Part shown: piece after piece, positions 4,112 to 38,544 of the stretch | How positions within the stretch are numbered: position 1 is the first letter of the stretch | Layout of the letters: each line of letters opens with the position of its first letter | The notes under the pieces: generated by a model | Seen by the model: the letters and a program-made list of their open reading frames with translations, nothing else | What the model was told of the DNA's origin: nothing | The model's database searches: none | Origin: Candidatus Alcyoniella australis | Lineage (GTDB): Bacteria > Lernaellota > Lernaellaia > JAVCCG01 > Alcyoniellaceae | NCBI GenBank assembly: GCA_030765605.1 | Contig: JAVCCG010000061.1 | Coordinates: 1 to 42,415 of the forward strand | Direction: 5' to 3' | DNA length: 42,415 nt | Program-made: the position numbers and the translations under genes

Positions 4112-4140
4112 GTAGAACCCTCATGAATCATCCAGGCTAG
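4112..4140 (+). repeat. Intergenic motif copy GTAGAACCCTCATGAATCATCCAGGCTAG
   Basis: Seen in the sequence. Overlaps the stop codon (cta at 4137-4139) of the upstream minus-strand gene. Lies 35 nt upstream of the SPFH ATG. Matches the copies at 35435, 4832 and 4677 (inverted) and the palindrome at 2904. Confidence 0.6.
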
Positions 4141-4661: not shown

Positions 4662-4676
4662 CGCCGCCTCCAGACT

Positions 4677-4704
4677 AGCCCGCATTATTCATGAGGCTTC
4701 TACT
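4677..4704 (-). repeat. Intergenic motif copy in inverted orientation. Left arm of a 20-bp perfect inverted repeat.
   Basis: The plus strand reads agcccgcattattcatgaggcttctac. Its reverse complement is GTAGAAGCCTCATGAATAATGCGGGCT. Confidence 0.6.
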
Positions 4705-4831: not shown

Positions 4832-4858
4832 ACGAACCCTCATGAATAATGCGGGCTG
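4832..4858 (+). repeat. Intergenic motif copy. Right arm of the 20-bp perfect inverted repeat.
   Basis: ACGAACCCTCATGAATAATGCGGGCT. The 20 nt cctcatgaataatgcgggct (4838-4857) are the exact reverse complement of 4677-4696. Confidence 0.6.
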
Positions 4859-6657: not shown

Positions 6658-8172
6658 ATGTCCAAAGCGTTGCGCCTGTTAACGGTCCTGTTGTGCTTGC
6701 TGATCCCGCTGGCGTTGGTCGCCTGCGATCAGGGCGCCGATGACGACGACGACGACCAGACCGCGGATGACGACGACCTTGACGACGACGATTTGGACGA
6801 CGACGCGGACGACGACGACGATACGCAGGACCCCGACTGGGATTTCATTGTCGACGAACAGGGGCGCGCGCTGATCTTGCACGGCTGCAACTTCGACGGC
6901 GGGGCCAAGTGGAACGCGGGCCTGCCGCCCCAAGGGGTCGAGCAGACGCAGAGCCTGTTTGGCGATTGGGGCTTCAACTTCGCGCGCTACTTAATTTTCC
7001 GGGCCGAGATCGACCCCGAGCCCGGCGTCTACAACGAGGACTATCTGGGCCAGGTCGAGACGCGGCTGGACTGGCTGGAGCAGGCCGGCATCCGCGTGGT
7101 GCTCGACATGCACCAGGACGTCTGGGGACCGGAGTTCCACAGCGGCGGCTCCGACGGCGCGCCGCCCTGGGCCACGATCACCGACGGAGTGCCGCACATC
7201 CCCTTTGCCCAGCTCCTCGGCGCCTGGGCCCTGGACTACCTCTCGCCCGCGGTGATGCGCGCCTTTGACAACTTCTGGGACTACGAGCTGCACCCCGAGC
7301 TGCAGGACCTCTACGCCGCAATGTGGGTCCACGTGGTGCAGCGCTTCAAGGATCACCCCAGCGTACTGGGCTACGACCTGATCAACGAGCCGTGGGAAGG
7401 GACCGGGATCTACAACCAGGGGCGCTTTGACCGCACCAAGTATTTCGAGTTCAACCAGCGGATGATCGACGCGATCCGCAGCGCGGACCAGGAGGGCTGG
7501 ATCTTCTACGAGCCGCGCGCCTTTGGCCCCAACCAGGGACTGCCATCGCATTTGCCCGCACTGGACGATCCGCGTCCCGGCGCGCAACGCCTGGCCTACT
7601 TCCCGCACATGTACTCGATCCTGGTCGAGCTTGAAGGCGGCTACGACCCGCTGCGCGATCCGATCCTCGAGGACTGGCCGCGCAACCGCACGATCGAGAG
7701 CGAGCTGCAGCGTGCGCCGCTGCTGGCCGGCGAATGGTCGTTGCTCACCTGGCCCGACCTGGAAAACCGCCTGCTGTTCAACGATGCGGCCCTGCGGATG
7801 TTCGAAAGCGCGACCTCGGGCTGGGCCTATTGGGATTGCGGCTCGTTCGAGCGCTCGCCGCTTGAGCTGCAAGAGCTGATCGCCTCGCCCTTTCCTCGCG
7901 CCGTGGCCGGTTGGCCCCTGGAGTACGGCTACGACCAAAGCGCGCGCGAGCTGAGCTTGACCTTTGAGGCGCGCGACAATGTCGAGGGACCGACCGAGAT
8001 CTATCTGCCGCTAAGCCGCTGCTGCCCTGACGGCTACGCAATCGAGGTCAGCGGCGTGGCGGAAGATGGCTGGCACAGCGAGTTTAACGACGATTCCCAA
8101 CTGCTCAGCATCTGGATCGATGAGACTTTTACCGAGGCCACAATCAGTATTTTTGCCGCACAGCCGCAGTAG
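6658..8172 (+). CDS. Lipoprotein: glycoside hydrolase family 5 domain, with a poly-Asp linker after the lipobox
   Basis: MSKALRLLTVLLCLLIPLALVAC is a signal peptide plus lipobox. It is followed by DQGADDDDDDQTADDDDLDDDDLDDDADDDDD. GH5 blocks: VVLDMHQDVWGPEF and GYDLINEPWEG (the NEP acid/base motif). GGAGG sits 4 nt upstream of the ATG at 6658. The track ORF begins at 6484, but the upstream residues have no signal peptide or RBS. Confidence 0.7.
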   Translation: MSKALRLLTVLLCLLIPLALVACDQGADDDDDDQTADDDDLDDDDLDDDADDDDDTQDPDWDFIVDEQGRALILHGCNFDGGAKWNAGLPPQGVEQTQSLFGDWGFNFARYLIFRAEIDPEPGVYNEDYLGQVETRLDWLEQAGIRVVLDMHQDVWGPEFHSGGSDGAPPWATITDGVPHIPFAQLLGAWALDYLSPAVMRAFDNFWDYELHPELQDLYAAMWVHVVQRFKDHPSVLGYDLINEPWEGTGIYNQGRFDRTKYFEFNQRMIDAIRSADQEGWIFYEPRAFGPNQGLPSHLPALDDPRPGAQRLAYFPHMYSILVELEGGYDPLRDPILEDWPRNRTIESELQRAPLLAGEWSLLTWPDLENRLLFNDAALRMFESATSGWAYWDCGSFERSPLELQELIASPFPRAVAGWPLEYGYDQSARELSLTFEARDNVEGPTEIYLPLSRCCPDGYAIEVSGVAEDGWHSEFNDDSQLLSIWIDETFTEATISIFAAQPQ

Positions 8173-8335: not shown

Positions 8336-10018
8336 GTGAGAAAACGCTTTTTCACGTTTACCGCCCTGGCCTTCTCAGTTATCTGTGTCATCGGCATCGT
8401 GGCGTTCTGCTCTTGCGGGACTGATGATGACGACGACGCGGACGACGATGACGACGATCTTGACGACGACGCGGACGACGATGACGACGACGGTTTCCCC
8501 TGCGTCTGGGACCAGGTACGAGCAGGACATTGGGTGCATGCGGTGAACTTGCCGTGGGACAACTATGGCACCGACTTCGGAGAAAGCGCCTGGGGCTATC
8601 GCGGATTGGCAAACCAGGGGCCTGCCGGATGGCGCTGCAAACACGACGACGACAGCCAAGGGTGTGCGAGTTTGGATTGGAACGACGGGAAGCTCGTGGT
8701 GAACTTGAGCTTGAATGCCTCAGATCAGCTCAGATCGAATGCAATAACTTACTATTGTTTTGAGGAATCGGCGGCTTTGCCCTCGGAGGGGACGATCGAC
8801 CTTCGCGGAAAAACAGTTGCCGCCCAGGCAAGCTTTCCTGCCGGAAGCCAGGGGCCCTCATCCGCTCCCAACGAAGTAGTCCTCTTTCTCCAGGACATCA
8901 ACTGGAATTGGGGACAGAGCGCGCCGCAGAACATCGTGCCGGGCGACATGACGTTGAGCGTCGTGCCCGACACCCTGCCGGATTTCGATGAGACGCAGGT
9001 CCGCTGCATCGGCATCAGCATGACTACCAACGACGAGGCGCCGGATGATTACACTTATGACGGCTCCTTCACCGTCGATTACGTGCAGTCGCCGCCCGAG
9101 ATAAACTTCCCCTACGACACCGCCCATACGCGCACAGAAGATGAACTGCTGGACATCGCGGGCCTCGGGGCCACGGCGACCCGCGTATGGCTTTTCGCCG
9201 ACGGCCGATCAGGACTGGCATTCGATCCGGCCAGCGGAGAGGTCAGCGGCCTTAATCAGTTTTTTAAAGATGATTTCGACGAACTGATACGTCTGGCTGA
9301 TTCAAGCCGGCTATATCTGATCGTCGTGCTGTTTGACTTCCTGATGGGCGGCTCGTCCCCGGTGGAGGAGCCGGGAATCTTCGGCCACGCGGACCTGATC
9401 ACCGACCCGGCCAAGCGCGATTCCCTGATCGGGAATGCGCTGATCCCGCTCTTTGAGGAGTACGGCGATCGGTGCGAAATATTGTCGTGGGAACTGATGA
9501 ATGAGCCCGAATGGCTGTTGATCAACGATCCCGACCACGTGACGATCCTCGCGGGAAAGAGGCCGTCCGAGATCGCCACCGGCGGCGCGGCCACCTTCGA
9601 CCAGATGACCGAGTTTTTCAACGCTGTTCTTGAGGCATACCAGACCGCCGTGCCCGGCGGGCAACAGCTTTTCACCGTGGGAAGCGCCAGCGAACAATGG
9701 GCCGATCAGTGGTACGAGGCGCTGAACATGGATCTCGGTCAATTCCATTTCTGGAACGGTCCCGCACAGATCGACGAAGGTCTGAGCTTCGATTTCACGC
9801 CGCCGATCGCCGGCGTGCCCAACATCATGGGCGAGTTCAGCTCAGAGGCCGATTGCTGCGAAATACTGGAATCCGCCCTTGAGCTGGATTACTCGGGAGC
9901 CTGGCCCTGGGCCTATCGATCCAAGGACGAATCGAGCTTCCGCATGCTGGGCGACGATTGCCGCGAGTGCATGCAGCAGTTTGCAGAGGAACATCCCGAA
10001 ACGGTTCGCTTCGAATAG
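8336..10018 (+). CDS. Lipoprotein: second glycoside hydrolase family 5 (mannanase-like) domain, with a poly-Asp linker
   Basis: GTG at 8336 is preceded by cAGAGG. The N-terminus (V)RKRFFTFTALAFSVICVIGIVAFCSCG is followed by TDDDDDADDDDDDLDDDADDDDDD. GH5 block: ILSWELMNEPEW. Confidence 0.6.
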   Translation: MRKRFFTFTALAFSVICVIGIVAFCSCGTDDDDDADDDDDDLDDDADDDDDDGFPCVWDQVRAGHWVHAVNLPWDNYGTDFGESAWGYRGLANQGPAGWRCKHDDDSQGCASLDWNDGKLVVNLSLNASDQLRSNAITYYCFEESAALPSEGTIDLRGKTVAAQASFPAGSQGPSSAPNEVVLFLQDINWNWGQSAPQNIVPGDMTLSVVPDTLPDFDETQVRCIGISMTTNDEAPDDYTYDGSFTVDYVQSPPEINFPYDTAHTRTEDELLDIAGLGATATRVWLFADGRSGLAFDPASGEVSGLNQFFKDDFDELIRLADSSRLYLIVVLFDFLMGGSSPVEEPGIFGHADLITDPAKRDSLIGNALIPLFEEYGDRCEILSWELMNEPEWLLINDPDHVTILAGKRPSEIATGGAATFDQMTEFFNAVLEAYQTAVPGGQQLFTVGSASEQWADQWYEALNMDLGQFHFWNGPAQIDEGLSFDFTPPIAGVPNIMGEFSSEADCCEILESALELDYSGAWPWAYRSKDESSFRMLGDDCRECMQQFAEEHPETVRFE

Positions 10019-19941: not shown

Positions 19942-22900
19942 CTAGCCGCAACAACCTGAGTCGTCGTCATCGTCGCCGTCCGAGGCGTCGTCGTCGTCAT
20001 CGTCGCCGGGTAAATCCGATACCGCGTTGGAGATGCGGCTTAAGTTCCCCTCATCGTCAGCGACACGCAGTGCCACGTGCAGCACGCCGGGGTCGGGCAC
20101 GATAAAGCTCTCGATTGATCCCGGCGGCTGAGGCGCTGCTCCGAACTCAAAGGCCTCTGCCGCGGCAAACTGTTCGACCTGCTCCAGATCGGCCGCGGGA
20201 TCGCGCGAGATGCGCACGTCATAGGACTGTGCCTGACCGCAGGTCCAATCATCTCCCGGCGCGGTGAAGGTCAGCTTGAGCCGCCTATCGCCGAGCCGTT
20301 CGAGCTGCAAGTCGGTGACGCGCGCGGGCGGCAGCGCGTCCAGGCCGTAGTATCCGCTGTTGTGCGGATCGTGGTGAAAGCGCGGCCAGTCGGCGTTCTG
20401 CTCGCCGTCAATGCAGGACGCGGCCCCGGTCTCCCAGGCGTAGAGCCAGCCCTCGTAGGTCGGCAGCAGCACCTCGAGCAGGCCATCGGCGTCGATGTCC
20501 GCGATCGCAGCGCTGCCCGTGATCCATTTCTGCGTGTACTTGGGCCAGCCCGGCGGCTGGATGCCGTCCACCGAGAACGCGTGCGCCAGGTAGCCGCTGG
20601 TCCCCAGCACCAGCTCGCGCGTGCCGTCCGCGTTGAGGTCGGCCGCGGCCGGGCTGTTGAACATCGGAAGGTCCTCCAGCTCCTCGATCAGCAGCCGCTC
20701 GTGGGGCGGGTCAACGTCGTTGGCCGCCAGCTTGGAGTTGATCAGGTTGAACCCCTCCTCGCCGATCTGCAGCACGGACAGCAGCGGGATCGAGTATTGC
20801 AGCCAGCCGTCGTTGTACAGCGAGGTGAACGCGCCGTGGGCGATGGAGGTCAGGCTGAGGCCGGTGGGCATGTACATCTCGTGGATCTTTTCGCCCGAGT
20901 AGTGCATCACCGCCGGGAACCAGCCCGGCGTGCCCAGGCCGATCCAGGCCTCGCCGTTGCCCAAGGCGATCACCGGCGAGGAGACGCCGCCCGCTGCGAA
21001 CGGCAGCGGGATCGCATCGCCCAGGGGCGCTGCGGGCGCGGCCGGCCAGTCGGGCAGAAACGTTCCCGCGGGATTGGCCCAGCCGTCGTGGTAGATCGCG
21101 TAGGCGCGGGTGGTGGCCAGCAGCCCCTCCTCGCAAATCTCGGTGGTCGCCACCACCACGGACGGATATTCGGACACGTCCGGATTCGCGTTCAGCGGAT
21201 CGAGCACACCCGCCGCCGGCGTGCTGCAAATCTGAGACGGCAGGCCGCTCCCCTCGCAGATCCGCTCGTCGCGCACGATCCCCTCGTCGCTGCGGCAGAG
21301 CACGGGCCAGCCGTAGAGCGGGTCGACCTGGCCGTTACCGTCCTGGTCCAGCGGCTTCCAAGCGTAGGCCTTCTGGTCGTTGGACGCGACCACGATCTCG
21401 AGCACGCCGTCGAGGTCGAGGTCAACGAGCACCGGCGAGCCGTAGACGCCGTTACCATGGCCAAAGGCGAGCGAGCTGGAGTTGTCCGGCGCATCGGTCT
21501 GCACCGGAAACCCGGGCAGGATCGGCGAGGGCTGGTGCAGGTTGCCGTCAGCGTGAATTGCAAACACCCGGCCCAGGGCCGTGGCGGCCACGATCTCGGG
21601 CTCGCCGTCGCCGAACAGATCGCCGATGGCCACCGAGCCGATGATCCCGTCGCTGCGCCATTGGTCGTAGCTCGAGAGGTCCACGGGGAAGCCCGCAAGC
21701 TCGGACCAGCCGGAGCCGTCAACGTCGCGGGTCAGAACGTGGACCAGGCCGTCGCCCGTGCCCATCACGATCTCGGGCAGGCCGTCGGCCGCGCCGTCGA
21801 GGTCGTAGACAATGGGCGAGAACCCGGGGGAGGCGCCGAAGTAGTACGGGAAGCCGGCGGCCAGGCCGTTCACCGGATCGTCGTCCACGTGGACCGAGAT
21901 CGACTTGCGCGCCTCGCCGCGCACCTGTTCGTCGATCCCGGCCTCGTACCACGCGCGCACGCGCAGCGAGACCTCGAAATCGTAGCGCGACTGGGGCACT
22001 CCGCGCATCTGGTCGGGCGGAAAGAGTTGGGCGATGGGCACCTGGGCAATCAGGCCCTCGATCCGCTCGTCGGACGTGCCCTGGAACACGGTCTGGTACT
22101 CATTGTCCAGCGGCTGCTTGCCGCGGGCCAGCTGCACCTCGTAGGAGAACGGATAGACCCGGGCGTCGATCTCGCCCTCGAGCTCGAAGGTCGCGCTCGC
22201 CGCGGTATCGAAGGTCTCCCACCAGCGCGGATAGGTGATGCGCACCTCGGGCGGAATGCGCGGCTCGATCCCGCGTTGCTCGTCGCCGAGCATCAGCAGC
22301 GCACGCTCGAGGTCCGGCCGGCCGTAGCCGAAGTGCTCGTCCCAGCCGGGCTGGCAGACGTTGAGCAGCGAGGCCACGGATGCGCAGTGGCTCTCGATAT
22401 CGTCCGCCGACTGGATCAGCAGCTGGAACAGCTCACCCGCGCTGAGCTCGATCCCCTGCTCCAACGCGTAGCTCTTGATCAGGGCCATGGCGCCGGTGGT
22501 GGTGCCCGTAGCGTCGGAGGTGCAGGCGGTGTCGGCGGGCACTGCCACGTGGGCGTGGGTGCCGAAGTTGGTGCAATAGGTCTCGACAAAGCCGAACGAT
22601 CCGAGGTTGAAGATCCCCACCAGGTCCACCGGGATGATCGGGAACAGCGCAGTGACCGCCACCACGTCCTCCATCGCGGCCGGAGCCCAATGGTGCATGC
22701 TCATCTCGTCGCCCTGGGGTGCGGCGATCAGCACCCCGGCGTCGTAGGCCTCCATCACCGCCCGATGCGCTTGGTCCGAATAGTTCAGGGCCACGCCGGA
22801 ATGGTTGATCACGTCCGCGCCCATCGACACCGCGTAACGCACGCCCGCGGCGAACAGGTCGTAGTTGTAGATCACCGCGTCGCCAACCCGCACCTGCATC

Positions 22901-23910
22901 ACGCGGCAGTCGGGGCAGACTCCGGGCCGATTGCCGATGCCGTTGTTGCCGCGCGCCGCGGCCAGCTCGCACATCCCGTGGCCGTGGGCCCCCTCGGGGA
23001 AGTCGTCGACCCCGAGCACCTCGTTGGTGTTGCGGAAGAAGTCCCAGCCGCTGATGTCGTCGACCAAGCCGTTTTTATCGTCGTCAACGCCGTCGGAGAA
23101 CTCGGCCAGTAGATCGCCGACGTTGATCGCGCGGTCCAGCGGCTCCACGCGCGGATCGTCGGCATAGTCGTCCACGTCAAAGCGGCCGTCGCCGTTGCAG
23201 TCGTAGTCCGCGCAGACGCCCGACGCGGTCTGCGGCAGGGGCAGCTCGCCGGAGTTGATGAACAGCGCGATGCGCAGGTCCTCGTCCTCGTAATGCTTAA
23301 GTCCGTCGTCGACCACCGCCACCAGCACATCGGGGCTGCCGGTGCTGTACTTCCAGGCGCCGGTGACGTTGATCCCCGGAATCATCCACGGCCCCTCGAC
23401 AGCAGACTCGGGCTCGATCGGGTTGAAGCCCATCAGCACGCTGGTCTCGGTGAACATTGCGAACGGATCGCCCGGATCGTAGATCGGGATCTCGAAGTCG
23501 TTGGGGATGTTGCACACGAACAATGCGCCGAAGGGGTACGCGCCGTCGAATGGATCGCCGGACGCGGAGTGCAGAGCGTTGCCCACGTGCAGCTCGATCC
23601 GCTCGCCCCAGGGCCAGGCCGCACTCGGCGTGAAGACCACTGTGTCGTTGGCGTGCACAATGCTGCTTAGTACCAGCGAGCCGGCCAGGTGCGCATCATC
23701 GCCACCCAGCGCAACGAAGAACGTCGAATCGCCCAGCGTGGCCCCTTCCAGGGAGTCGGAGAAGCGTACTGACAGCGGCGTGTCGCCCTGAACCAGCTTG
23801 CTCTGGAAGGTCGGAAACTGATCGACAATCGACAGCGCCGCGGCGCCCGAGGCGGCCAGCGCGATCGAACACAGCGCGACGAAAAGAACGGCAATCGTAC
23901 GTGACGTCAT
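19942..23910 (-). CDS. Large secreted protein (1322 aa): S8 subtilase-like peptidase domain plus FG-GAP/integrin-alpha-like beta-propeller repeats. Acidic C-terminal tail ending SGCCG.
   Basis: Signal peptide MTSRTIAVLFVALCSIALAASGAAA from the ATG at 23910. Subtilase D/H/S blocks: VAVVDDGL, HGHGMCELAAARGNNGIGNRPGVCP, ACTSDATGTTTGAMALIKS (aligns to GTSMASPHVAG). Repeated D-x-D/N-x-DG-x-x-E motifs (DLDLDGVLEIVV, DLNADGTRELVL, DIDADGLLEVLL) are FG-GAP-like. The C-terminus is DLPGDDDDDDASDGDDDDDSGCCG. Confidence 0.7.
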   Translation of the reverse strand: MTSRTIAVLFVALCSIALAASGAAALSIVDQFPTFQSKLVQGDTPLSVRFSDSLEGATLGDSTFFVALGGDDAHLAGSLVLSSIVHANDTVVFTPSAAWPWGERIELHVGNALHSASGDPFDGAYPFGALFVCNIPNDFEIPIYDPGDPFAMFTETSVLMGFNPIEPESAVEGPWMIPGINVTGAWKYSTGSPDVLVAVVDDGLKHYEDEDLRIALFINSGELPLPQTASGVCADYDCNGDGRFDVDDYADDPRVEPLDRAINVGDLLAEFSDGVDDDKNGLVDDISGWDFFRNTNEVLGVDDFPEGAHGHGMCELAAARGNNGIGNRPGVCPDCRVMQVRVGDAVIYNYDLFAAGVRYAVSMGADVINHSGVALNYSDQAHRAVMEAYDAGVLIAAPQGDEMSMHHWAPAAMEDVVAVTALFPIIPVDLVGIFNLGSFGFVETYCTNFGTHAHVAVPADTACTSDATGTTTGAMALIKSYALEQGIELSAGELFQLLIQSADDIESHCASVASLLNVCQPGWDEHFGYGRPDLERALLMLGDEQRGIEPRIPPEVRITYPRWWETFDTAASATFELEGEIDARVYPFSYEVQLARGKQPLDNEYQTVFQGTSDERIEGLIAQVPIAQLFPPDQMRGVPQSRYDFEVSLRVRAWYEAGIDEQVRGEARKSISVHVDDDPVNGLAAGFPYYFGASPGFSPIVYDLDGAADGLPEIVMGTGDGLVHVLTRDVDGSGWSELAGFPVDLSSYDQWRSDGIIGSVAIGDLFGDGEPEIVAATALGRVFAIHADGNLHQPSPILPGFPVQTDAPDNSSSLAFGHGNGVYGSPVLVDLDLDGVLEIVVASNDQKAYAWKPLDQDGNGQVDPLYGWPVLCRSDEGIVRDERICEGSGLPSQICSTPAAGVLDPLNANPDVSEYPSVVVATTEICEEGLLATTRAYAIYHDGWANPAGTFLPDWPAAPAAPLGDAIPLPFAAGGVSSPVIALGNGEAWIGLGTPGWFPAVMHYSGEKIHEMYMPTGLSLTSIAHGAFTSLYNDGWLQYSIPLLSVLQIGEEGFNLINSKLAANDVDPPHERLLIEELEDLPMFNSPAAADLNADGTRELVLGTSGYLAHAFSVDGIQPPGWPKYTQKWITGSAAIADIDADGLLEVLLPTYEGWLYAWETGAASCIDGEQNADWPRFHHDPHNSGYYGLDALPPARVTDLQLERLGDRRLKLTFTAPGDDWTCGQAQSYDVRISRDPAADLEQVEQFAAAEAFEFGAAPQPPGSIESFIVPDPGVLHVALRVADDEGNLSRISNAVSDLPGDDDDDDASDGDDDDDSGCCG

Positions 23911-24052
23911 CGTGAGCACTCCGGTCGTAATGTGGCAGGCGAGCCTATCCAAGCGGCATTTAGCCTGGATTATTTATCAAGTTTCGTCAAATATTGCGGT
24001 AGCTGAATTTGACCGCTGAACAAATCGGGAATCCACGATATGATTTAAGATC

Positions 24053-33346: not shown

Positions 33347-33494
33347 CAATTTCCCCAAGCCTGAGTCGGGCGTAGGATATCCTTGCCCGTCAACGGCCGT
33401 CAAGCTTTCGCGCTCTGGCCTATTGTAGATCGTCTGCTATGATATCCCCACATCGATATCAGCGGATAAACGTGTAGATGCAAAGGAGCTTCCG

Positions 33495-35399
33495 ATGTTG
33501 GCGTTTCGCGAAAAGCACCTGTGGCTGCTGCTGCTGGCGGCGTTGTCGTTATTGGCCCTGGTCGCGGCCGGCTGTTCGGTCGGCGACGACGACGACGACG
33601 ATGACGACGATGACGACGATGATTTCGAGCTTGACGGCAATATCGTCGCGCCGCAGATCGACCCCACGGACTGCCTGACCGACGACGCCAAAGAGGCGGT
33701 CGAACTGGCGCCGGCCTGGCTGCGCACCGAGATGATCCTCAACCTGTGCGCTTTAGCGGACGATAAGCAGGACCTGGCCGCCGAGCTGGTGCTGGGCTAT
33801 ACCGACCCCAAATACATCGACGAGCTGGCGTTTTTAGCGGCCCACGTGGGCAAGACCGACTGGAACTACCCTTCCCTGGACATCGACCTGTTCTACGACA
33901 ACGTCGTGTCGGTCTACGCCGCGGACGAGCAGCTGGACTACGTGACCCTGATCGACGAGGGCGATCCGCTGACCGACGACGACTTCTTCACCACGGCCGA
34001 ATACAGTTCCTTTGACAGCTCGGGCAAGGCCCAGACCGTGCGCGTGGATCCCTATTACTACTACTGGTTCGTGGTCCATCCGCGGCTGGAGGACGAGGGC
34101 CCGCGCTACATCGACCCCGAAACCGGCGGCAGCGCCGATCCGCCCGACGGCGTGTTCTGGCGCGACTACCTGCTCAACCACTCCGACGATCTGTGCCCGG
34201 GCACAATCGACAATCAGACCGATTTCGAGGATCCGGAAAAGACTACCTGGGTGAGCTGCTCGGTGCTCGCCGATCTGCTCGCGGGCGTGGACACGGTCTG
34301 GGAGGGAACTGACGAAACAATCGACAATGGTGCCATTGGCTTAATCAGCTACTGGATCGACGAGGCGATGTGGTTCTTCAGCTATACTCGCCGGCCGGTG
34401 CAGCCCGTGGCGATCTACTCGGGCCATGTGGGGCGTTGCGGCGAGCACGCCGACCTGACCTCCGCCGCCACGCGCGCGGCGCTGATCCCCGCGGCCAACA
34501 TCGCCTCCTATGCCAACGACCACACCTGGAACGAGTTCTACGACTTCCTCTGGGTGCAGTACGAGCCGGTCAACGACATGGTTAACGCACCCAACGCCTA
34601 CGACACCTGGGGCAACGGCACCAAGGGCGCGTACCGCACGCGCGGCGACGGCTTCGCCGAGAACGCCACGTCGCTGTACACCACAACCGGCACCCTCGAG
34701 ATCACCGTGGTCGACTCCGCAGGCAACCCGGTGGACGAAGCGGTGGTGATCGCCAGCGGCAAATATGGCGGAAGGCAGATGGACCACACCATGAGCGTCA
34801 CCGACCAGAGCGGCTTCACCAGCTTCGAGGTCGGCGACGAGAACTACGTCTACCTCGAGGTCCGCTCGCCGCTGGCCAATTTCCCCGCCGAGCAGGTGAT
34901 CAAGAAGCGCATCAATGCCGGCCAAACCTATGAGGGCCAAATCGAGCTTGATGCCGAGCTTAAGACCCTGGACATCGCGCAGCCCGAGGACTACCAGGGC
35001 GCGGGCGTGGTCACGCTCGAGGTCGGCCTGATCGACGCGGTGCGTTACGTGCGCAACCAGGGGATCGTCGGCACCAATATCTTCACTCAGTCCTACGACG
35101 ACGTGCTGCTGCCGCTGTACATGGTCGACGCGCAGAACTACGCCCTCTACCAGGACGGCGAGCAGTTCGTTGCCCACGCCCTGACCTTTGATGCCAACGG
35201 CGAGGCGCAGTTCGACCTGCCCCACGGCGGCGACTGGATGCTGTTCGTGAGCAACTACTCGGGCGTGAGCAACTACATCACCGGCGCGTTGGCAGTGCAG
35301 ATCGTCAACGCCGCCACCGACGAGGTATTCGACTCGGCGCAGGTCGAGCTGTTCCTCGAGCCGGGCGATCTGGCGCTGTTTGAATTAAACGGATTGTAG
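33495..35399 (+). CDS. Lipoprotein: transglutaminase-like cysteine-protease core domain, with a 13-Asp linker after the lipobox
   Basis: The N-terminus MLAFREKHLWLLLLAALSLLALVAAGCSVG is followed by DDDDDDDDDDDDD. Transglutaminase-like core: GRCGEHADLTSAATRAALIPAANIASYANDHTWNEFY (a Cys...His...Asp/Asn arrangement). C-terminal Ig-like / CarboxypepD_reg-like beta domain (TGTLEITVVDSAGNPVDEAVV). Confidence 0.6.
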   Translation: MLAFREKHLWLLLLAALSLLALVAAGCSVGDDDDDDDDDDDDDFELDGNIVAPQIDPTDCLTDDAKEAVELAPAWLRTEMILNLCALADDKQDLAAELVLGYTDPKYIDELAFLAAHVGKTDWNYPSLDIDLFYDNVVSVYAADEQLDYVTLIDEGDPLTDDDFFTTAEYSSFDSSGKAQTVRVDPYYYYWFVVHPRLEDEGPRYIDPETGGSADPPDGVFWRDYLLNHSDDLCPGTIDNQTDFEDPEKTTWVSCSVLADLLAGVDTVWEGTDETIDNGAIGLISYWIDEAMWFFSYTRRPVQPVAIYSGHVGRCGEHADLTSAATRAALIPAANIASYANDHTWNEFYDFLWVQYEPVNDMVNAPNAYDTWGNGTKGAYRTRGDGFAENATSLYTTTGTLEITVVDSAGNPVDEAVVIASGKYGGRQMDHTMSVTDQSGFTSFEVGDENYVYLEVRSPLANFPAEQVIKKRINAGQTYEGQIELDAELKTLDIAQPEDYQGAGVVTLEVGLIDAVRYVRNQGIVGTNIFTQSYDDVLLPLYMVDAQNYALYQDGEQFVAHALTFDANGEAQFDLPHGGDWMLFVSNYSGVSNYITGALAVQIVNAATDEVFDSAQVELFLEPGDLALFELNGL

Positions 35400-35434
35400 C
35401 GCCAAGGTTATCCTCTTTCTTGAGCGCCTCGCTG

Positions 35435-35463
35435 ACGAACCCTCATGATTAATCCAGGCTAGT
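35435..35463 (+). repeat. Intergenic motif copy GACGAACCCTCATGATTAATCCAGGCTAG, ending 3 nt before the ATG at 35466
   Basis: Seen in the sequence. A 25/27 match to the copy at 4112-4140. Confidence 0.6.
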
Positions 35464-35465
35464 CG

Positions 35466-38345
35466 ATGCATCGTATCGCCTGCTCCTTGTTACTGATCGT
35501 GCTGCTCGTGCTCGGGCTGTGCCTGCCCTCTCTGGCCTACGACTCGCGCCTTGTTTGGCGCACGTTGGAGACCGAACACTTCTACGTACACTTCCACGAT
35601 GGCGAGCGCGAGCTGGCGCTGCGTGCCGCAATCCTCGCCGAACAGGTCTTCGACATGCTCTCCGAGCAGCTTGATTGGCAGCCTTGGGGCAAGGTCCAGC
35701 TGGTAATCGCCGACGACTCGGACCGCGCCAACGGCTGGGCGAGCACCATTCCCTACAACACCGTGCGGCTCTATGCCACGGCCCCGACCTCGGATCAGCG
35801 CATCGACGAATACGGGGATTGGTTCCACGGCCTGCTGATGCACGAGATGACCCACGTGCTGCACATCGACCAGGCGCGCGGATTCAACCGGCTGTTCCGC
35901 GCGATCTTCGGCCGGGTCTACGCGGTCAACGGCATCCACCCGATTTTGCAGATCGAGGGGCTGGCCGTGCTCAAGGAGACCAGCAACACCGAGCACGGCC
36001 GCGGTCGCTCGAGCCTGACCCAGATGTATCTGCGCGCAGCGATTCTCGAGGACCGCTTCCCGAGCATCGATCAGTCCACCACGTTCTTTCTGCGCTGGCC
36101 GGGCTCGGCCGTGCCCTACCTGTTCGGCGGCGCGTTCCACGTCTACGTGGCGGACAACTACGGTGAGAATTGCTGGACGCAGATCTCGAAACGCCACTCG
36201 CGCCAAGTCTGGCCGTTTCTCTACAACAGCAACGCCGAGCGCGTAATCGGCAAGAGCCTGGTCACCCTTTGGCGCGAATGGCAGACCGTGCTGCGCTCGC
36301 GCTTTGAGCGCCAGGCCGCACAGATTCGCTCCCAGGGCCTGTACCGGGGCGAGCGCGTGACGTTCAGCGGCTACCAGACGCGCAAACCGACATTCGCCGG
36401 GCCGCGCAGCCTCTACTTTCAGCAGCGCACACCGCGCCGTAAGAACCGGATCATGCTGCTCGACCTTCAGACCAGTCGTACGAGCAAGGTGGCCCTGATC
36501 GATGGCCCGGGGGGCATGGACGCCCTGGGCAACGATCTGCTGGTCTATTCCGACGACCGCGTGTATCAGATCGACTACCTGTTCAAGGACCTGTTCCTGA
36601 TCGACCGACGGCCGCGTAGCGAACGGATCACCAGCGGCAAACGCCAACGGCTGACGCGCGGCGCGCGCCTGCTCGACCCGGCGTTCTTCAGCGACGGCAA
36701 ACGCGTGCTGGCCGTGCAGAACCGCCTGCAGTCCAAAGACCTGGTGATCTACGACCTGGAGACGCGGAGCATCGAACGCGTTAGCGACCTAAGCCCCGAG
36801 CTGGTGCAGTTCGATCGGCCCGACGTGCACACCGATGGCCGCCGCGCGGCAGTGGCCGCGTGGCACGAGCGCGGCGAACGCGACATCTATCTCTACGACT
36901 TAGAGGACCACGTTTTCACGCGACTGACATCGCATCCGGCTAAGGAGATCGACCCGCAGTTCACGCCCGACGGCGAGTTGCTGTTGTTCAGCTCGGACCG
37001 CAGCGGCGTGTACAACATCTACGCCCTGGACCTGCCTAAGCAACGGCTGTTTCAATTGACCAACGTGCTCGGCGGCGCGTTCTGGCCCAGCGTCAGCTCG
37101 GATGGCGAGCTGCTGGCCTACACCGGCTACACTGCCGACGGGTTCGACGTGTTCGTGCTCGAGCTCGACAAAGCCTGGTGGCGCGAGGTGCCCTACGAGC
37201 CGCCCGCGCCCAGCGGGCCGCCGCGCAACGGCAACCCTATCGATCTCCAGGCCGCGGCCGAGCAGTTCCCCGAGCATAAATACAGCCCGTGGCGCACGAT
37301 CTGGCCGCGCTATTGGCTGCCCGAGCTTGGCACCACGGCCGATGAAACACTGTTCGGCATCACCACCTCGGGCCGCGACGTGCTGCAGTACCACTCCTAT
37401 TCGGCCACCGCGCTCTACGGGCCGCAGAGCGAATTCCTCAGCTACTGGCTGAGCTACGCCAACCGCCAGCTGTGGCCGACGATCAGGCTCAACCAGGCGG
37501 CCTTCGCCGACTCCTACGGCAAGCTGATCCGGCTGCCCGACGGGCGCCGCCGCCAGTACTTCGAGCGCCGGATAACCGGCAGCGTAGGGGCCTACGCGCC
37601 GATCGTCGAGCACCTCGTGGCGGGCGCGAGCTATCGCATTCAACAGCGCGACAACATCACACGCATCCCCTCCGACGCGATCAACCCACCCAATACCGGG
37701 CTGTTCTCCGGCCTGGCGCTGAGCCTGAGTTTCAACAACACGCAGAGCTACGGCCGCTCGATCAGCCCCGAGCGCGGCGTGGATTTGGGACTGGGCTTCA
37801 ACTGGTGGGCCGATTGGCTGGGCTCGGATTACGACCTGCGAATCATCAGCGCCTCGGCCCGCGCCTACCAGGGGCTGTGGCTCAATCACGCCTTGGCCCT
37901 GCGATTGGTCGGCGGACTGGCCCAAGGCGACGTGCTGCGCCAACGCACTTTCCGCCTCGGCGGGTTCGGCGGCAGCGGCGCATTTGCCGTGCCTTCCGAG
38001 GGCAGCTACTTTATGCGCGGGTTCGGCGCATCGCAGTTCAAGGGTCAGCGCATCGTCGCGGGTTCGGTTGAATACCGGCTGCCGATCTGGTGGATCGACC
38101 GCGGCATCAGCACCTGGCCGATCTACTTCAAGGTCTTGCACGCCAACCTGTTCTACGACACCGGCCAAAGCTTTGATCGCCTGGACTTCAAGCCGCGCGA
38201 CCTGCACCAAGGCCTGGGCGCGGAAATCAAGCTCGATACGCGCTTGGCCTACGGCATGGCGGTCAACTTCCGTTTCGCCCTGGCACAGGGATTGGGCGAT
38301 GAGGGCGACCTGCGCTACATGTACTACCTGGGCGGCCTTTTCTAG
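35466..38345 (+). CDS. Putative outer-membrane protein (959 aa): HEXXH metallopeptidase-like N-domain, TolB-like (PD40/WD40-like) beta-propeller region, C-terminal beta-barrel ending in Phe
   Basis: Signal peptide MHRIACSLLLIVLLVLGLCLPSLA. Zinc motif LLMHEMTHVLHI, with a downstream Glu in QIEGLAV. PD40-like repeats (FSSDRSGVYNIYALDL, SSDGELLAYTGY). The C-terminus, with alternating aromatic strands ending YMYYLGGLF, looks like an outer-membrane barrel (inference). Confidence 0.55.
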   Translation: MHRIACSLLLIVLLVLGLCLPSLAYDSRLVWRTLETEHFYVHFHDGERELALRAAILAEQVFDMLSEQLDWQPWGKVQLVIADDSDRANGWASTIPYNTVRLYATAPTSDQRIDEYGDWFHGLLMHEMTHVLHIDQARGFNRLFRAIFGRVYAVNGIHPILQIEGLAVLKETSNTEHGRGRSSLTQMYLRAAILEDRFPSIDQSTTFFLRWPGSAVPYLFGGAFHVYVADNYGENCWTQISKRHSRQVWPFLYNSNAERVIGKSLVTLWREWQTVLRSRFERQAAQIRSQGLYRGERVTFSGYQTRKPTFAGPRSLYFQQRTPRRKNRIMLLDLQTSRTSKVALIDGPGGMDALGNDLLVYSDDRVYQIDYLFKDLFLIDRRPRSERITSGKRQRLTRGARLLDPAFFSDGKRVLAVQNRLQSKDLVIYDLETRSIERVSDLSPELVQFDRPDVHTDGRRAAVAAWHERGERDIYLYDLEDHVFTRLTSHPAKEIDPQFTPDGELLLFSSDRSGVYNIYALDLPKQRLFQLTNVLGGAFWPSVSSDGELLAYTGYTADGFDVFVLELDKAWWREVPYEPPAPSGPPRNGNPIDLQAAAEQFPEHKYSPWRTIWPRYWLPELGTTADETLFGITTSGRDVLQYHSYSATALYGPQSEFLSYWLSYANRQLWPTIRLNQAAFADSYGKLIRLPDGRRRQYFERRITGSVGAYAPIVEHLVAGASYRIQQRDNITRIPSDAINPPNTGLFSGLALSLSFNNTQSYGRSISPERGVDLGLGFNWWADWLGSDYDLRIISASARAYQGLWLNHALALRLVGGLAQGDVLRQRTFRLGGFGGSGAFAVPSEGSYFMRGFGASQFKGQRIVAGSVEYRLPIWWIDRGISTWPIYFKVLHANLFYDTGQSFDRLDFKPRDLHQGLGAEIKLDTRLAYGMAVNFRFALAQGLGDEGDLRYMYYLGGLF

Positions 38346-38389: not shown

Positions 38390-38464
38390 TGGTGCCCCAG
38401 GGAGGGATCGAACCTCCGCACCCGGCTCCGGAGGCCGATGCTCTATCCACTGAGCTACTGGGGC
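38390..38464 (-). tRNA. tRNA-Arg (anticodon CCG)
   Basis: The reverse complement gives GCCCCAGTAGCTCAGTGGATAGAGCATCGGCCTCCGGAGCCGG...GGTTCGATCCCTCCCTGGGGCACCA. The cloverleaf folds by hand. The anticodon loop is CTCCGGA. CCA is encoded. Confidence 0.85.
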
Positions 38465-38468
38465 ATGA

Positions 38469-38544
38469 TGGTGGACGGTAGCGGACTCGAACCGCCGGCC
38501 TCTGCCTTGCGAAAGCAGCGCTCTTCCAACTGAGCTAACCGCCC
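38469..38544 (-). tRNA. tRNA-Ala (anticodon CGC)
   Basis: The reverse complement gives GGGCGGTTAGCTCAGTTGGAAGAGCGCTGCTTTCGCAAGGCAG...GGTTCGAGTCCGCTACCGTCCACCA. The G3:U70 wobble is the Ala identity element. The anticodon loop is TTCGCAA. CCA is encoded. Only 4 nt separate it from tRNA-Arg. Confidence 0.85.

What the first reader, a model, noticed from the sequence alone, without database searches (positions are those of the whole stretch)
33495..38345. Two-gene cassette pairing a transglutaminase-like lipoprotein with an OM-barrel metallopeptidase/TolB-propeller fusion
A lipoprotein with an intact transglutaminase-like Cys-His-Asp core (GRCGEHAD...NDHTWNEFY) is followed 66 nt later by a 959-aa protein. 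That protein combines a HEMTH zinc-peptidase-like domain, PD40/TolB-like propeller repeats and a C-terminal barrel ending in Phe. The motif copy lies between them. I do not know of a characterised system built from a transglutaminase-like fold plus a protease/propeller/barrel fusion. It could be an envelope-remodelling or protein-crosslinking/processing module.
Basis: partly seen in the sequence, partly recalled or inferred. Interest (0 to 1): 0.65.

Follow-up and report, generated by a model that had tools for sequence, protein, structure and literature searches.

The report
Lineage-specific operon of two envelope hydrolases
Two neighbouring genes in an uncultivated Antarctic-lake bacterium encode a transglutaminase-like lipoprotein and an outer-membrane barrel fused to a zinc peptidase and a TolB-like propeller; the fusion type was catalogued in 2014, and the pairing occurs only in a few close relatives.

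Summary
ORF A (33495-35399, 634 aa) is a lipoprotein with a transglutaminase/PNGase-type core. Its third catalytic residue is Glu357, not Asp. ORF B (35466-38345, 959 aa) starts 66 nt later. It has a signal peptide, an MA/M1-type zinc-peptidase domain (H126, E127, H130, E164 and Y218, all invariant), a six-bladed TolB-like propeller and a 16-strand Omp85 barrel with the LRG(F/Y) and FxDxG motifs.

ORF B is not a new architecture. Heinz & Lithgow (2014) already listed a 'WD40-like' Omp85 subfamily with TolB-like and aminopeptidase-like domains. The N-domain family has more than 5,000 clusters at 50% identity. No member has been characterised experimentally.

The A+B pair, always 5-66 nt apart, is kept in all five loci that hold the closest ORF A relatives (39-43% identity), with differing flanks. 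It is absent next to about 130 more distant ORF A homologues and next to five ORF B homologues, which have other partners.

The best reading is a clade-specific operon of two envelope hydrolases acting on proteins or (glyco)peptides. It is not a general 'system'. Function remains inferred. Interest is modest.

The parts
33483..33488 (+). Shine-Dalgarno sequence AAGGAG, 6 nt before the ORF A start codon
   Evidence: Read directly from the sequence.
33495..35399 (+). ORF A, 634 aa: lipoprotein with a transglutaminase/PNGase-like core and two beta-sandwich domains
33495..33575 (+). Signal peptide and lipobox of ORF A (aa 1-27, lipidated Cys27)
   Evidence: Sequence MLAFREKHLWLLLLAALSLLALVAAG-C. 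A Cys at this position after the signal peptide is present in most homologues (alignment A2).
33585..33623 (+). Poly-Asp tether (about 13 Asp, aa 31-43) directly after the lipobox
   Evidence: The model has pLDDT below 50 for aa 26-42.
34338..34568 (+). Transglutaminase-like catalytic core (aa 282-358) with C315, H343 and E357
   Evidence: Pfam match to aa 282-358. C315 and H343 are invariant in 45 sequences. E357 aligns with the catalytic Asp of PNGase. That column is E in 40, D in 4.
34686..34946 (+). Transthyretin-like / CarboxypepD_reg-like beta-sandwich (aa ~398-484)
35010..35390 (+). C-terminal beta-sandwich domain of ORF A (aa ~506-632), no family match
   Evidence: All-beta secondary structure in the AF2 model with high pLDDT.
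35437..35460 (+). Copy of a 24-nt repeated intergenic motif that ends 5 nt before the ORF B start. It contains a 5-codon mini-ORF (ATG ATT AAT CCA GGC TAG).
   Evidence: 4 copies in the window, 0 expected. Alignment A6. Absent from the A-B spacers of related loci. No Rfam match.
35466..38345 (+). ORF B, 959 aa: 'WD40-like' Omp85 protein (zinc peptidase + TolB-like propeller + Omp85 barrel). GenBank MDP8255443.1, annotated 'hypothetical protein'.
   Evidence: AF2 model pLDDT 88.9, pTM 0.90.
35466..35537 (+). Signal peptide of ORF B (aa 1-24, ...PSLA|YD)
   Evidence: Sequence. pLDDT below 50 for aa 1-21.
35538..36350 (+). MA/M1-type zinc-metallopeptidase domain (aa 25-295). H126-E127-x-x-H130 is at nt 35841-35855, with E164 and Y218 also in this domain.
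   Evidence: H126, E127, H130, E164 and Y218 are invariant in 42 of 42 sequences. Pfam Peptidase_MA_2 passes its cut-off in the distant homologue P0045 and matches 6 of 21 N-domain homologues, best E 7e-9. A weak profile match to the M1 aminopeptidase 3cia aligns the EGxA and Y-x-x-G motifs. Phyre2 aminopeptidase hits for the subfamily are listed in PMC4104836 Table S3.
36363..37190 (+). Six-bladed TolB-like (PD40) beta-propeller (aa ~300-575)
37191..37316 (+). Conserved linker before the barrel (aa 576-617) with a family motif YSPW-x4-P-x2-W-x-P (Y606 invariant; P614, W617, P619 at least 90%)
   Evidence: Alignment A1. Two short helices in the model.
37317..38345 (+). 16-stranded Omp85-type beta-barrel (aa 618-959). 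Loop-6 motif MRGF is at aa 850-853, FYDTG (FxDxG) at aa 896-900, and the protein ends in F959.
38390..38544 (-). tRNA-Arg(CCG) and tRNA-Ala(CGC) on the opposite strand. They mark the downstream boundary of the two-gene unit.
   Evidence: ARAGORN. Rfam tRNA.

Best explanation
This is a clade-specific, probably co-transcribed pair of genes for two envelope-located hydrolases. The host is Candidatus Alcyoniella australis (phylum Ca. Lernaellota), an uncultivated anaerobe predicted to live by breaking down proteins and polysaccharides.

Gene A encodes a lipoprotein. A poly-Asp tether follows the lipid anchor. It then carries a transglutaminase/PNGase-type Cys315-His343-Glu357 hydrolase core and two beta-sandwich domains.

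Gene B encodes a member of the already catalogued 'WD40-like' Omp85 subfamily.
- The 16-strand Omp85 barrel sits in the outer membrane.
- By analogy with BamA and TamA, whose N-terminal domains are periplasmic, it holds the peptidase and propeller at the periplasmic face.
- The six-bladed propeller would admit only unfolded chains or peptides to the zinc site, as the propellers of tricorn and S9 oligopeptidases do.

The two enzymes most likely act on the same pool of protein or (glyco)peptide substrates at the outer membrane. The pairing is a lineage-specific operon, not a widely conserved system.

Shown here: the domain composition, the conservation of catalytic and barrel motifs, the folds of the propeller, the barrel and the TGase-like core, and the distribution of the pairing.

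Inferred: the topology, any enzyme activity, the substrates, co-transcription, and any functional link between A and B.
For: Organism:
- P0001 is 100% identical to ORF B and comes from the Ca. Alcyoniella australis MAG.
- The organism's lifestyle is described in PMC9324843.

ORF B architecture and models.

Catalytic and Omp85 motifs, counted in 42 sequences:
- H126, E127, H130, E164 and Y218 are invariant.
- R851 and G852 are invariant.
- F896 is invariant, position 898 is D or E in all 42, G900 is present in 40, and the C-terminal residue is Phe in 41.

MA-clan assignment of the N-domain rests on Pfam matches in homologues, not in ORF B itself:
- Pfam Peptidase_MA_2 matches homologues.
- An M1-type motif alignment exists but is weak.
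- Published Phyre2 results cover the subfamily.

ORF A fold and triad.

Pairing:
- A is followed by B on the same strand in L005 (gap 48 nt), L088 (5 nt), L007 (14 nt), L091 (57 nt), L089 (61 nt) and the window (66 nt).
- The flanks differ. Only L005 shares pyrR-pyrB-pyrC with the window.
- No sigma-70-like promoter or intrinsic terminator was found in the window's gap.

Extracytoplasmic-degradation theme:
- ORF A homologues in other phyla carry T9SS sorting tails.
- They sit beside other secreted proteins, including C10, S8 and M28 peptidases.
- An S8 peptidase lies upstream in L089.
- The window also encodes a GH5 lipoprotein and an S8 peptidase.
Against: - No experiment exists for any member of either family.
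- The N-domain fold was not confirmed by the fold searches. The top 50-60 hits were all propellers and barrels.
- ORF B itself has no Pfam peptidase hit.
- The M1-type GXMEN motif is absent.
- Periplasmic topology is assumed from BamA/TamA. PlpD shows that an Omp85 barrel can export its passenger domain instead (PMC4104836).
- The pair is known from only six loci of one clade, so shared ancestry could explain part of its persistence.
- ORF B homologues elsewhere have unrelated upstream partners: Amidase_3, an alpha/beta hydrolase and Hsp33.
- The repeated 24-nt motif in the A-B gap could carry a separate promoter for ORF B.
Confidence: 0.45

Rival explanations
1. Outer-membrane quality control. 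ORF B would be an accessory Omp85 that works like a physical fusion of a BamA-type barrel with a BepA-like periplasmic zinc protease. It would capture and degrade stalled or misfolded outer-membrane proteins or lipoproteins. ORF A would be a client or helper.
For: The barrel is Omp85-type and keeps the conserved loop-6 and FxDxG motifs. Heinz & Lithgow propose protein assembly or quality control for the non-POTRA subfamilies, and liken the WD40 type to a BamA-BamB fusion (PMC4104836). The zinc site is invariant.
Against: There are no POTRA domains. Nothing here links the protein to the BAM complex. The partner genes in other lineages are hydrolases, not envelope-biogenesis genes. The BepA analogy rests on general knowledge, not on any test made here.
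Confidence: 0.15
2. Cell-wall (peptidoglycan) or glycopeptide turnover. An amidase-type enzyme would separate glycan from peptide, and the outer-membrane-tethered peptidase would trim the released peptides. The amidase is ORF A here and Amidase_3 in Gemmatimonadota. The TolB-like propeller would dock on peptidoglycan-associated partners.
For: In the two Gemmatimonadota/Longimicrobiales loci a 681-691-aa Amidase_3 protein lies directly upstream of the ORF B homologue. It overlaps by 4 nt in L003, and GH3 and SSF transporter genes lie nearby. The next-closest ORF A homologue without ORF B (L090) is followed by a GH25 muramidase. The best solved sequence relative of ORF A is PNGase, a glycan-peptide amidase. 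In L005 and L088 a third gene with weak GH127-like similarity follows ORF B.
Against: These are only three anecdotal neighbourhoods. A survey of 39 downstream and 36 upstream neighbours of ORF A homologues showed no recurrent peptidoglycan enzymes. ORF A lacks the CxxC zinc motif of PNGase (sequence). The TolB equivalog model is far below its cut-off.
Confidence: 0.15
3. No functional coupling. The two genes are independent envelope proteins that are neighbours by descent in one clade.
For: The pair is absent from 132 of 136 ORF A-homologue loci that have at least 600 nt downstream (3 have ORF B directly downstream and one has only a weak upstream hit), and from all 5 ORF B-homologue loci. L005 shares wider synteny (pyrRBC; PyrB 77% identical) with the window. 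A repeated motif in the gap might provide a separate promoter.
Against: The pair survives while the flanks differ in L007, L088 and L089. The spacers are short, down to 5 nt. Both proteins have diverged to a similar degree (about 40%) while staying adjacent.
Confidence: 0.2
4. Protein cross-linking module. ORF A would be a true transglutaminase that cross-links envelope or surface proteins, and ORF B would process them.
Against: By profile, the closest solved sequences are PNGases (E 3.9e-6), not transglutaminases. It is established that most prokaryotic transglutaminase-like proteins are predicted hydrolases (Makarova, Aravind & Koonin 1999; from my own knowledge). Homologues are T9SS-secreted alongside peptidases.
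Confidence: 0.05

Closest known systems
'WD40-like' Omp85 subfamily (Heinz & Lithgow 2014, Front Microbiol 5:370, PMC4104836)
   Same: Same three-part architecture. Table S3 lists, for members from Anaeromyxobacter, Sorangium, Rhodothermus, Caldithrix and Cloacimonas, a BamA/TamA-type barrel, a TolB-type propeller and a 'best aminopeptidase hit' to M1 enzymes such as 1z5h, 4kxd and 4fgm. ORF B is 33% identical over 96% of its length to an Anaeromyxobacter protein that NCBI names 'BamA/TamA family outer membrane protein'.
   Different: ORF B comes from a phylum (Lernaellota) that was not sampled in 2014. Its link to a transglutaminase-like lipoprotein gene was not described. The subfamily has no experimentally studied member.
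BamA / TamA (POTRA-bearing Omp85 proteins)
   Different: There are no POTRA domains. A peptidase and a propeller take their place. Pfam Omp85 scores below its cut-off for ORF B (20.9 vs 24 bits).
TolB (Tol-Pal system)
   Different: Only the propeller matches. The TolB N-terminal domain is absent, and the TIGR02800 score is 91 vs the 343-bit cut-off. The protein is fused to a membrane barrel rather than soluble.
Clan MA gluzincins: Pfam Peptidase_MA_2 and M1 aminopeptidases (for example the cold-active aminopeptidase 3cia and tricorn-interacting factor F3)
   Same: HExxH, plus a downstream Glu in an 'EGxA' helix, plus a Tyr in a 'Y-x-x-G' segment. All are invariant. Peptidase_MA_2 matches homologues.
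   Different: The second His and the Glu ligand are 33 residues apart, against 18 in M1. There is no GXMEN motif. The M1 N-terminal and C-terminal domains are missing. ORF B itself has no direct Pfam hit.
Propeller-gated peptidases (tricorn protease, S9 family DPP-IV / acylaminoacyl peptidase)
   Same: A PD40-type propeller next to a peptidase domain. There are weak matches to tricorn and S9 propellers. This is what the peptidase-propeller unit probably works like.
   Different: The catalytic class differs (zinc vs serine), and ORF B has a membrane barrel. Whether the propeller gates the zinc site was not checked, because the model coordinates could not be inspected.
Peptide:N-glycanase (Png1/NGLY1) and bacterial transglutaminase-like putative cysteine proteases (PDB 3isr, 3kd4); Bacteroides fragment 3e8v
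   Different: Glu replaces the catalytic Asp. There is no CxxC zinc motif. ORF A is a lipoprotein with a poly-Asp tether and extra N- and C-terminal domains. It is extracytoplasmic, whereas PNGase is cytosolic.
PlpD (patatin-Omp85) and 'Metallo' (PF00149) Omp85 subfamilies
   Same: An enzyme domain is fused N-terminally to an Omp85 barrel (PMC4104836).
   Different: The enzyme domains are different, and PlpD retains a POTRA domain. PlpD's passenger is exported to the cell surface. Whether ORF B does the same is unknown.

Membership tests
Omp85/TpsB superfamily | 16-stranded outer-membrane beta-barrel of the BamA/TamA/Sam50 type | tested here: met
Omp85/TpsB superfamily | Loop-6 (V/I/L)RG(F/Y) motif | tested here: met
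   MRGF at aa 850-853. R851 and G852 are present in 42/42 sequences. Position 853 is F or Y in 38/42.
Omp85/TpsB superfamily | (F/G)xDxG motif on a C-terminal barrel strand | tested here: met
   FYDTG at aa 896-900. F in 42/42, D or E in 42/42, G in 40/42. That this motif defines the family is from my own knowledge (Delattre et al. 2010).
Omp85/TpsB superfamily | Pfam PF01103 (Omp85) at or above the gathering score | tested here: inconclusive
   ORF B scores 20.9 bits vs the 24-bit cut-off. Homologue P0004 scores 30.2 bits, which passes. NCBIfam Omp85_fam scores 28.8 vs 200.
Omp85/TpsB superfamily | Residence in the outer membrane | not testable with these tools
   Only a signal peptide and a C-terminal Phe (41/42 sequences) are seen.
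'WD40-like' Omp85 subfamily (Heinz & Lithgow 2014) | PD40/TolB-like propeller N-terminal to the Omp85 barrel, and no POTRA domain | tested here: met
   No POTRA hit in Pfam.
'WD40-like' Omp85 subfamily (Heinz & Lithgow 2014) | Aminopeptidase-like (M1-type) domain at the N-terminus, as in their Table S3 | tested here: met
   Invariant HExxH, E164 and Y218. Peptidase_MA_2 matches homologues. Weak M1 profile alignment. The fold searches did not list this domain.
'WD40-like' Omp85 subfamily (Heinz & Lithgow 2014) | Sequence clustering with the listed UniProt members (for example B4UC98, A7HC17, D0MEQ5) | not tested
   Those entries could not be fetched, and afdb50 was unavailable. As a proxy, ORF B is 33% identical over 96% of its length to an Anaeromyxobacter homologue, P0004.
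BamA / TamA | One or more POTRA domains N-terminal to the barrel | tested here: not met
   No POTRA match. The model shows a peptidase domain and a propeller instead.
TolB (Tol-Pal) | Full-length TolB (N-terminal domain plus propeller) reaching the TIGR02800 equivalog cut-off | tested here: not met
   91.1 bits vs 343.15. Only aa 393-573 match.
Clan MA(E) gluzincin metallopeptidases | HExxH plus a downstream Glu as third zinc ligand | tested here: met
   H126, E127, H130 and E164 are present in 42/42 sequences and lie on two helices (aa 119-134 and 160-173) of the model.
M1 aminopeptidases | GXMEN exopeptidase motif and HExxH-X18-E spacing | tested here: not met
   No GXMEN in the sequence. 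The spacing is 33 residues. Pfam Peptidase_M1 matches one homologue at E 0.068 only.
Clan MA(E) gluzincin metallopeptidases | Zinc-dependent peptidase activity | not testable with these tools
   This needs biochemistry.
Transglutaminase-like superfamily (PF01841) | Pfam match above the cut-off and a papain-like transglutaminase fold | tested here: met
Transglutaminase-like superfamily (PF01841) | Cys-His-Asp catalytic triad | tested here: inconclusive
   C315 and H343 are present in 45/45 sequences. The Asp position holds Glu357 (E in 40, D in 4 of 45). The position stays acidic, but the residue geometry was not inspected.
Peptide:N-glycanase (Png1/NGLY1) | CxxC zinc-binding motifs beside the core | tested here: not met
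   ORF A has six Cys (27, 60, 85, 234, 255, 315) and no CxxC pair (sequence).

The most novel reading that the evidence does not exclude
In Lernaellota-like bacteria the transglutaminase/PNGase-like lipoprotein and the peptidase-propeller-Omp85 protein form a dedicated outer-membrane machine. One form would be a two-step (glyco)peptide-processing unit: the lipoprotein removes a glycan or isopeptide block, and the tethered zinc peptidase degrades the peptide. Another form would have the barrel help place the poly-Asp-tagged lipoprotein at the surface. The Amidase_3 partner seen in Gemmatimonadota would then be an analogous 'amidase + Omp85-peptidase' pairing, giving the first functional handle on a family of more than 5,000 clusters.
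Probability: 0.15. Interest if true: 0.6.

Novelty: new member of a known kind. Interest (0 to 1): 0.3.

Why it matters
The peptidase-propeller-Omp85 family is large. Its N-domain alone has 5,146 clusters at 50% identity with E up to 1e-3. It spans many phyla and has been catalogued since 2014, yet it has no known function.

A conserved operon partner can give a clue to substrate or role. Here the partner is conserved only within one clade and differs elsewhere, so the clue is weak. It points loosely to extracytoplasmic protein, glycopeptide or cell-wall peptide processing.

The finding does not reveal a new kind of system. Its value is as one data point for a future neighbourhood census and as a well-modelled example: pLDDT is about 89-91 for both proteins.

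Tried and rejected
- A locus search with the 42-sequence ORF B alignment failed because no stretch was conserved enough. I therefore sampled ORF B homologues by single-protein contig look-ups. I scanned GTDB genomes and JGI metagenomes with the ORF A alignment instead.
- The afdb50 fold library was unavailable, so ORF B could not be tied directly to the UniProt entries of the 2014 list.
- A profile of N-domain-only homologues against PDB gave only weak M1 hits, E 0.22-1.2.
- The sigma-70 promoter and terminator scan found nothing in the A-B gap.
- I tried reading the 24-nt motif as a sigma-70 promoter. The TTGnnC-to-AATAAT spacing is 20-22 nt, which is too long.
- I also tried reading it as an ECF-type promoter. 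The spacing from GAAC to a TCTG-like element is about 22 nt, also too long.
- I rejected both promoter readings. Two of the four copies also point away from any plausible gene.
- Rfam has no match to the motif.
- I considered a general peptidoglycan link. Surveys of 36 upstream and 39 downstream neighbours of ORF A homologues showed mostly T9SS cargo and assorted genes, with no recurrent cell-wall enzymes.
- The third gene seen after ORF B in L005 and L088 is not present anywhere in the window (tblastn).
Full report
**Source and setting**

The window is a whole 42,415-bp contig of the metagenome-assembled genome 'Candidatus Alcyoniella australis'. ORF B is 100% identical to GenBank MDP8255443.1, locus P9M14_06820, annotated 'hypothetical protein'. 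The organism belongs to the candidate phylum Lernaellota. The phylum was described from the anoxic zone of Ace Lake, Antarctica, and its members are predicted to be saccharolytic and proteolytic (PMC9324843).

The two genes lie on the + strand. Upstream is a divergent pyrR-pyrB-pyrC cluster on the - strand. Downstream are two convergent tRNA genes, Arg-CCG and Ala-CGC, at 38390-38544. In this genome they therefore form a self-contained two-gene unit.

**Check of the observation**

- ORF A is 33495-35399 (634 aa) and ORF B is 35466-38345 (959 aa). The spacer is 66 nt.
- ORF A has an AAGGAG ribosome-binding site, a signal peptide and a lipobox Cys27. About 13 Asp follow the lipobox.
- Pfam Transglut_core matches aa 282-358 of ORF A above its cut-off.
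- ORF B has a signal peptide, HEMTH at aa 126-130, PD40 repeats and a partial TolB-model match at aa 393-573.
- It also has an Omp85 match just below the Pfam cut-off, and it ends in Phe.
- The 'motif copy' in the spacer is a 24-nt element with four copies in the window and none expected by chance.

**ORF B in detail**

A 42-sequence alignment gave an AlphaFold2 model with mean pLDDT 88.9 and pTM 0.90. The model has four regions:
- an alpha/beta domain at aa 31-290;
- 24 strands forming six propeller blades at aa 303-575;
- a short conserved linker;
- a 16-strand barrel at aa 618-955.

The two sequence hallmarks of Omp85 barrels are conserved:
- (L/V)RG(F/Y) at aa 850-853, with R and G in 42/42 sequences;
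- FxDxG at aa 896-900, with F in 42/42, D or E in 42/42 and G in 40/42.

There is no POTRA domain.

The N-domain has no Pfam hit of its own. However, H126, E127, H130, E164 and Y218 are invariant in all 42 sequences. Pfam Peptidase_MA_2 passes its curated cut-off in the distant homologue P0045. It also matches 6 of 21 N-domain-only homologues, best E 7e-9. A weak profile match to the M1 aminopeptidase 3cia (E 0.22) aligns 'wliEGlAvyeE' with 'WLNEGFTSYVE' and 'vaYlyG' with 'VPYVKG'. Those are the positions of the M1 zinc-ligand Glu and catalytic Tyr; that identification is from my own knowledge of M1 enzymes.

The M1 GXMEN motif is absent, and the His-to-Glu spacing is 33 residues rather than 18. 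I therefore call it an MA/M1-type zinc peptidase of unknown specificity, not an M1 family member.

**ORF B is a known kind**

Heinz & Lithgow (2014, PMC4104836) divided the Omp85/TpsB superfamily into ten subfamilies. One is 'WD40-like', with a TolB-like propeller in place of POTRA domains. Their Table S3 lists three things for members from Anaeromyxobacter, Sorangium, Rhodothermus, Caldithrix, Cloacimonas and others:
- a BamA/TamA-type barrel;
- a TolB-type propeller;
- a 'best aminopeptidase hit' to M1 structures at about 99% Phyre2 confidence.

[quoted passage not shown] ORF B is 33% identical over 96% of its length to an Anaeromyxobacter protein.

An exhaustive search with the N-domain alone found 5,146 clusters at 50% identity with E up to 1e-3, and 896 with E up to 1e-30. 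Most of the best hits are 950-1,100 aa long with the domain at the N-terminus. So the architecture is widespread. I found no experimental work on it.

**ORF A in detail**

By sequence profile the best solved relative is PNGase (E 3.9e-6). In that alignment Cys315 and His343 match the catalytic Cys and His, and Glu357 sits where the catalytic Asp is. That position is Glu in 40 and Asp in 4 of 45 homologues. The PNGase CxxC zinc motif is absent.

Homologues are numerous: 245 confirmed stretches in GTDB genomes and 224 in JGI metagenomes. They occur in many bacterial phyla and in Thermoplasmatota archaea. Many carry T9SS C-terminal sorting domains. The family therefore looks like a secreted or surface-tethered hydrolase, not a partner-specific factor.

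**Do the two genes travel together?**

Only in one clade. The five loci holding the closest ORF A relatives (39-43% identity) all have an ORF B homologue immediately downstream on the same strand.

| Locus | ORF B homologue | Identity to ORF B | A-B gap |
|---|---|---|---|
| window | full length | – | 66 nt |
| L005 | full length | 39% | 48 nt |
| L088 | full length | 38% | 5 nt |
| L091 | 258 aa, cut by contig end | 47% | 57 nt |
| L089 (same contig as L092) | N-terminal fragment, cut by contig end | 44% over 54 aa | 61 nt |
| L007 | N-terminal fragment, cut by contig end | 42% over 48 aa | 14 nt |

The flanks differ. Only L005 shares pyrR-pyrB-pyrC with the window (PyrB 77% identical). L005 and L088 also carry a third gene right after ORF B. 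It encodes a 605-609-aa lipoprotein with weak GH127-like similarity, and the window lacks it.

Beyond this clade the pairing disappears.
- Among 136 ORF A-homologue loci with at least 600 nt downstream, three have ORF B directly downstream.
- One of the 136 (L130) has only a weak N-domain-like hit 2 kb upstream.
- The remaining 132 have nothing within 6-8 kb. Some contigs occur in both collections.
- Five loci with ORF B homologues have no transglutaminase-like gene. Their upstream neighbours are an alpha/beta hydrolase (Anaeromyxobacter), an Amidase_3 protein (two Gemmatimonadota/Longimicrobiales loci), Hsp33 and a small membrane protein.

It is met for a general system, but not within the clade.

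**Most likely mechanism**

I commit to a clade-specific operon of two envelope hydrolases. By analogy with BamA and TamA, whose N-terminal domains are periplasmic, the barrel of ORF B would hold the peptidase-propeller unit under the outer membrane. The propeller would admit only unfolded chains or peptides, as in tricorn and S9 peptidases. ORF A, tethered by its lipid and poly-Asp linker, would act on the same protein or (glyco)peptide substrates.

Support is indirect:
- the catalytic residues are invariant;
- the A-B spacers are short, and no terminator was found in the window's spacer;
- the host is predicted to be proteolytic;
- ORF A homologues tend to sit among secreted proteins and peptidases.

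Topology, activity, substrates and co-transcription are all inferred. Confidence is about 0.45.

The rivals are outer-membrane quality control (a BamA plus BepA-like fusion), cell-wall or glycopeptide turnover, no functional coupling, and true cross-linking. The cell-wall idea is suggested by the Amidase_3 partner in Gemmatimonadota, a GH25 muramidase next to ORF A's homologue in L090, and the PNGase similarity. None of the rivals is excluded. The cell-wall idea rests on only three neighbourhoods and was not borne out by the neighbour surveys.

**The spacer motif**

GAACCCTCATGAWTAATSCRGGCT occurs at 4115(+), 4677(-), 4834(+) and 35437(+). Each copy contains a five-codon mini-ORF (M-[N/I]-[N/H]-[A/P]-G-stop). 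The copy in the spacer ends 5 nt before the ORF B start.

It is absent from the spacers of the related loci and has no Rfam match. It does not fit sigma-70 or ECF promoter spacing, and two copies point away from any plausible gene. It is a property of this genome, not of the gene pair. I could not explain it.

**Verdict**

ORF B is a new member of a catalogued but uncharacterised Omp85 subfamily. ORF A is a new member of a widespread transglutaminase/PNGase-like family. Their adjacency is a narrow, lineage-specific operon. Interest is modest, at 0.3.

Noticed in passing
window 4115-4138(+), 4677-4700(-), 4834-4857(+), 35437-35460(+): A 24-nt repeated intergenic motif, GAACCCTCATGAWTAATSCRGGCT, has 4 copies against 0 expected. 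Each copy holds a 5-codon mini-ORF (M[NI][NH][AP]G-stop). Copies 1 and 2 are inverted and flank ORF 4137-4685(-), which has no Pfam match. The motif has no Rfam match, is absent from related loci and does not fit sigma-70 or ECF promoter spacing. Its function is unexplained.
   Followed up: partly
window ~6658-6840 (GH5 lipoprotein), 8336-8500 (ORF ending at 10018), 33495-33623 (ORF A): Three secreted proteins or lipoproteins have long poly-Asp tracts directly after the lipobox Cys: LALVAC-DQGADDDDDD..., VAFCSCGTDDDDDADDDDDD... and AAGC-SVGDDDDDDDDDDDDD. The closest homologues of ORF A (P0065-P0068) share this. It recalls the acidic lipoprotein export signal that sends Bacteroidetes lipoproteins to the cell surface (PMC5080379). 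That link was not tested.
   Followed up: partly
L005:11792-13609 and L088:7454-9283: In two related loci a third gene follows the ORF B homologue directly, overlapping it in L088. It encodes a 605-609-aa lipoprotein; the two copies are 45% identical, with only weak GH127-like (alpha/alpha-toroid) similarity. It is absent from the window, where two tRNA genes follow ORF B.
   Followed up: partly
L002:4902-6947 and L003:4929-7004: In Gemmatimonadota/Longimicrobiales the ORF B homologue is directly preceded by a 681-691-aa Amidase_3 (N-acetylmuramoyl-L-alanine amidase) protein, with a 4-nt overlap in L003. GH3 and SSF transporter genes lie upstream. This may be a cell-wall recycling context.
   Followed up: partly
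L018-L033 and other GTDB loci (Fermentibacteria, Aegiribacteria, Eisenbacteria): ORF A homologues in these lineages carry T9SS sorting tails. They are preceded by another T9SS-tailed protein of about 580 aa with no catalytic Pfam domain, often overlapping by 4 nt. Of 36 upstream neighbours, 15 have Por_Secre_tail. This is a different, possibly conserved pairing.
   Followed up: partly
L090:9134-10693: The next-closest ORF A homologue that lacks an ORF B neighbour (36.5% identity) is followed by a GH25 muramidase with CarboxypepD_reg domains and collagen-like repeats.
   Followed up: no
window 33495-35399: The exact ORF A protein is not in the 15-billion-protein collection, and no near-identical hit was returned (best 43%). 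ORF B of the same contig is present. ORF A may be uncalled or marked as a pseudogene in the deposited annotation, although the ORF is intact and aligns end to end with homologues.
   Followed up: partly
window 37281-37322 (ORF B aa 606-619): A strongly conserved linker motif, YSPW-x4-P-x2-W-x-P, lies just before barrel strand 1 (Y606 invariant; P614, W617, P619 at least 90%). It is specific to this Omp85 subfamily. Its role (plug, hinge or docking) is unknown.
   Followed up: no
L130:3217-3858: In one marine metagenome locus a weak match to the ORF B N-domain (27% over 220 aa, E 2e-4) lies about 2 kb upstream of an ORF A homologue. This may be an unfused MA-type peptidase near a transglutaminase-like gene.
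   Followed up: no
window 19942-23952(-): A 1,336-aa secreted S8 subtilase with FG-GAP and Ig-like domains has an acidic C-terminus ending ...DDDDDDASDGDDDDDSGCCG. This is another large envelope or secreted hydrolase on the contig.
   Followed up: no
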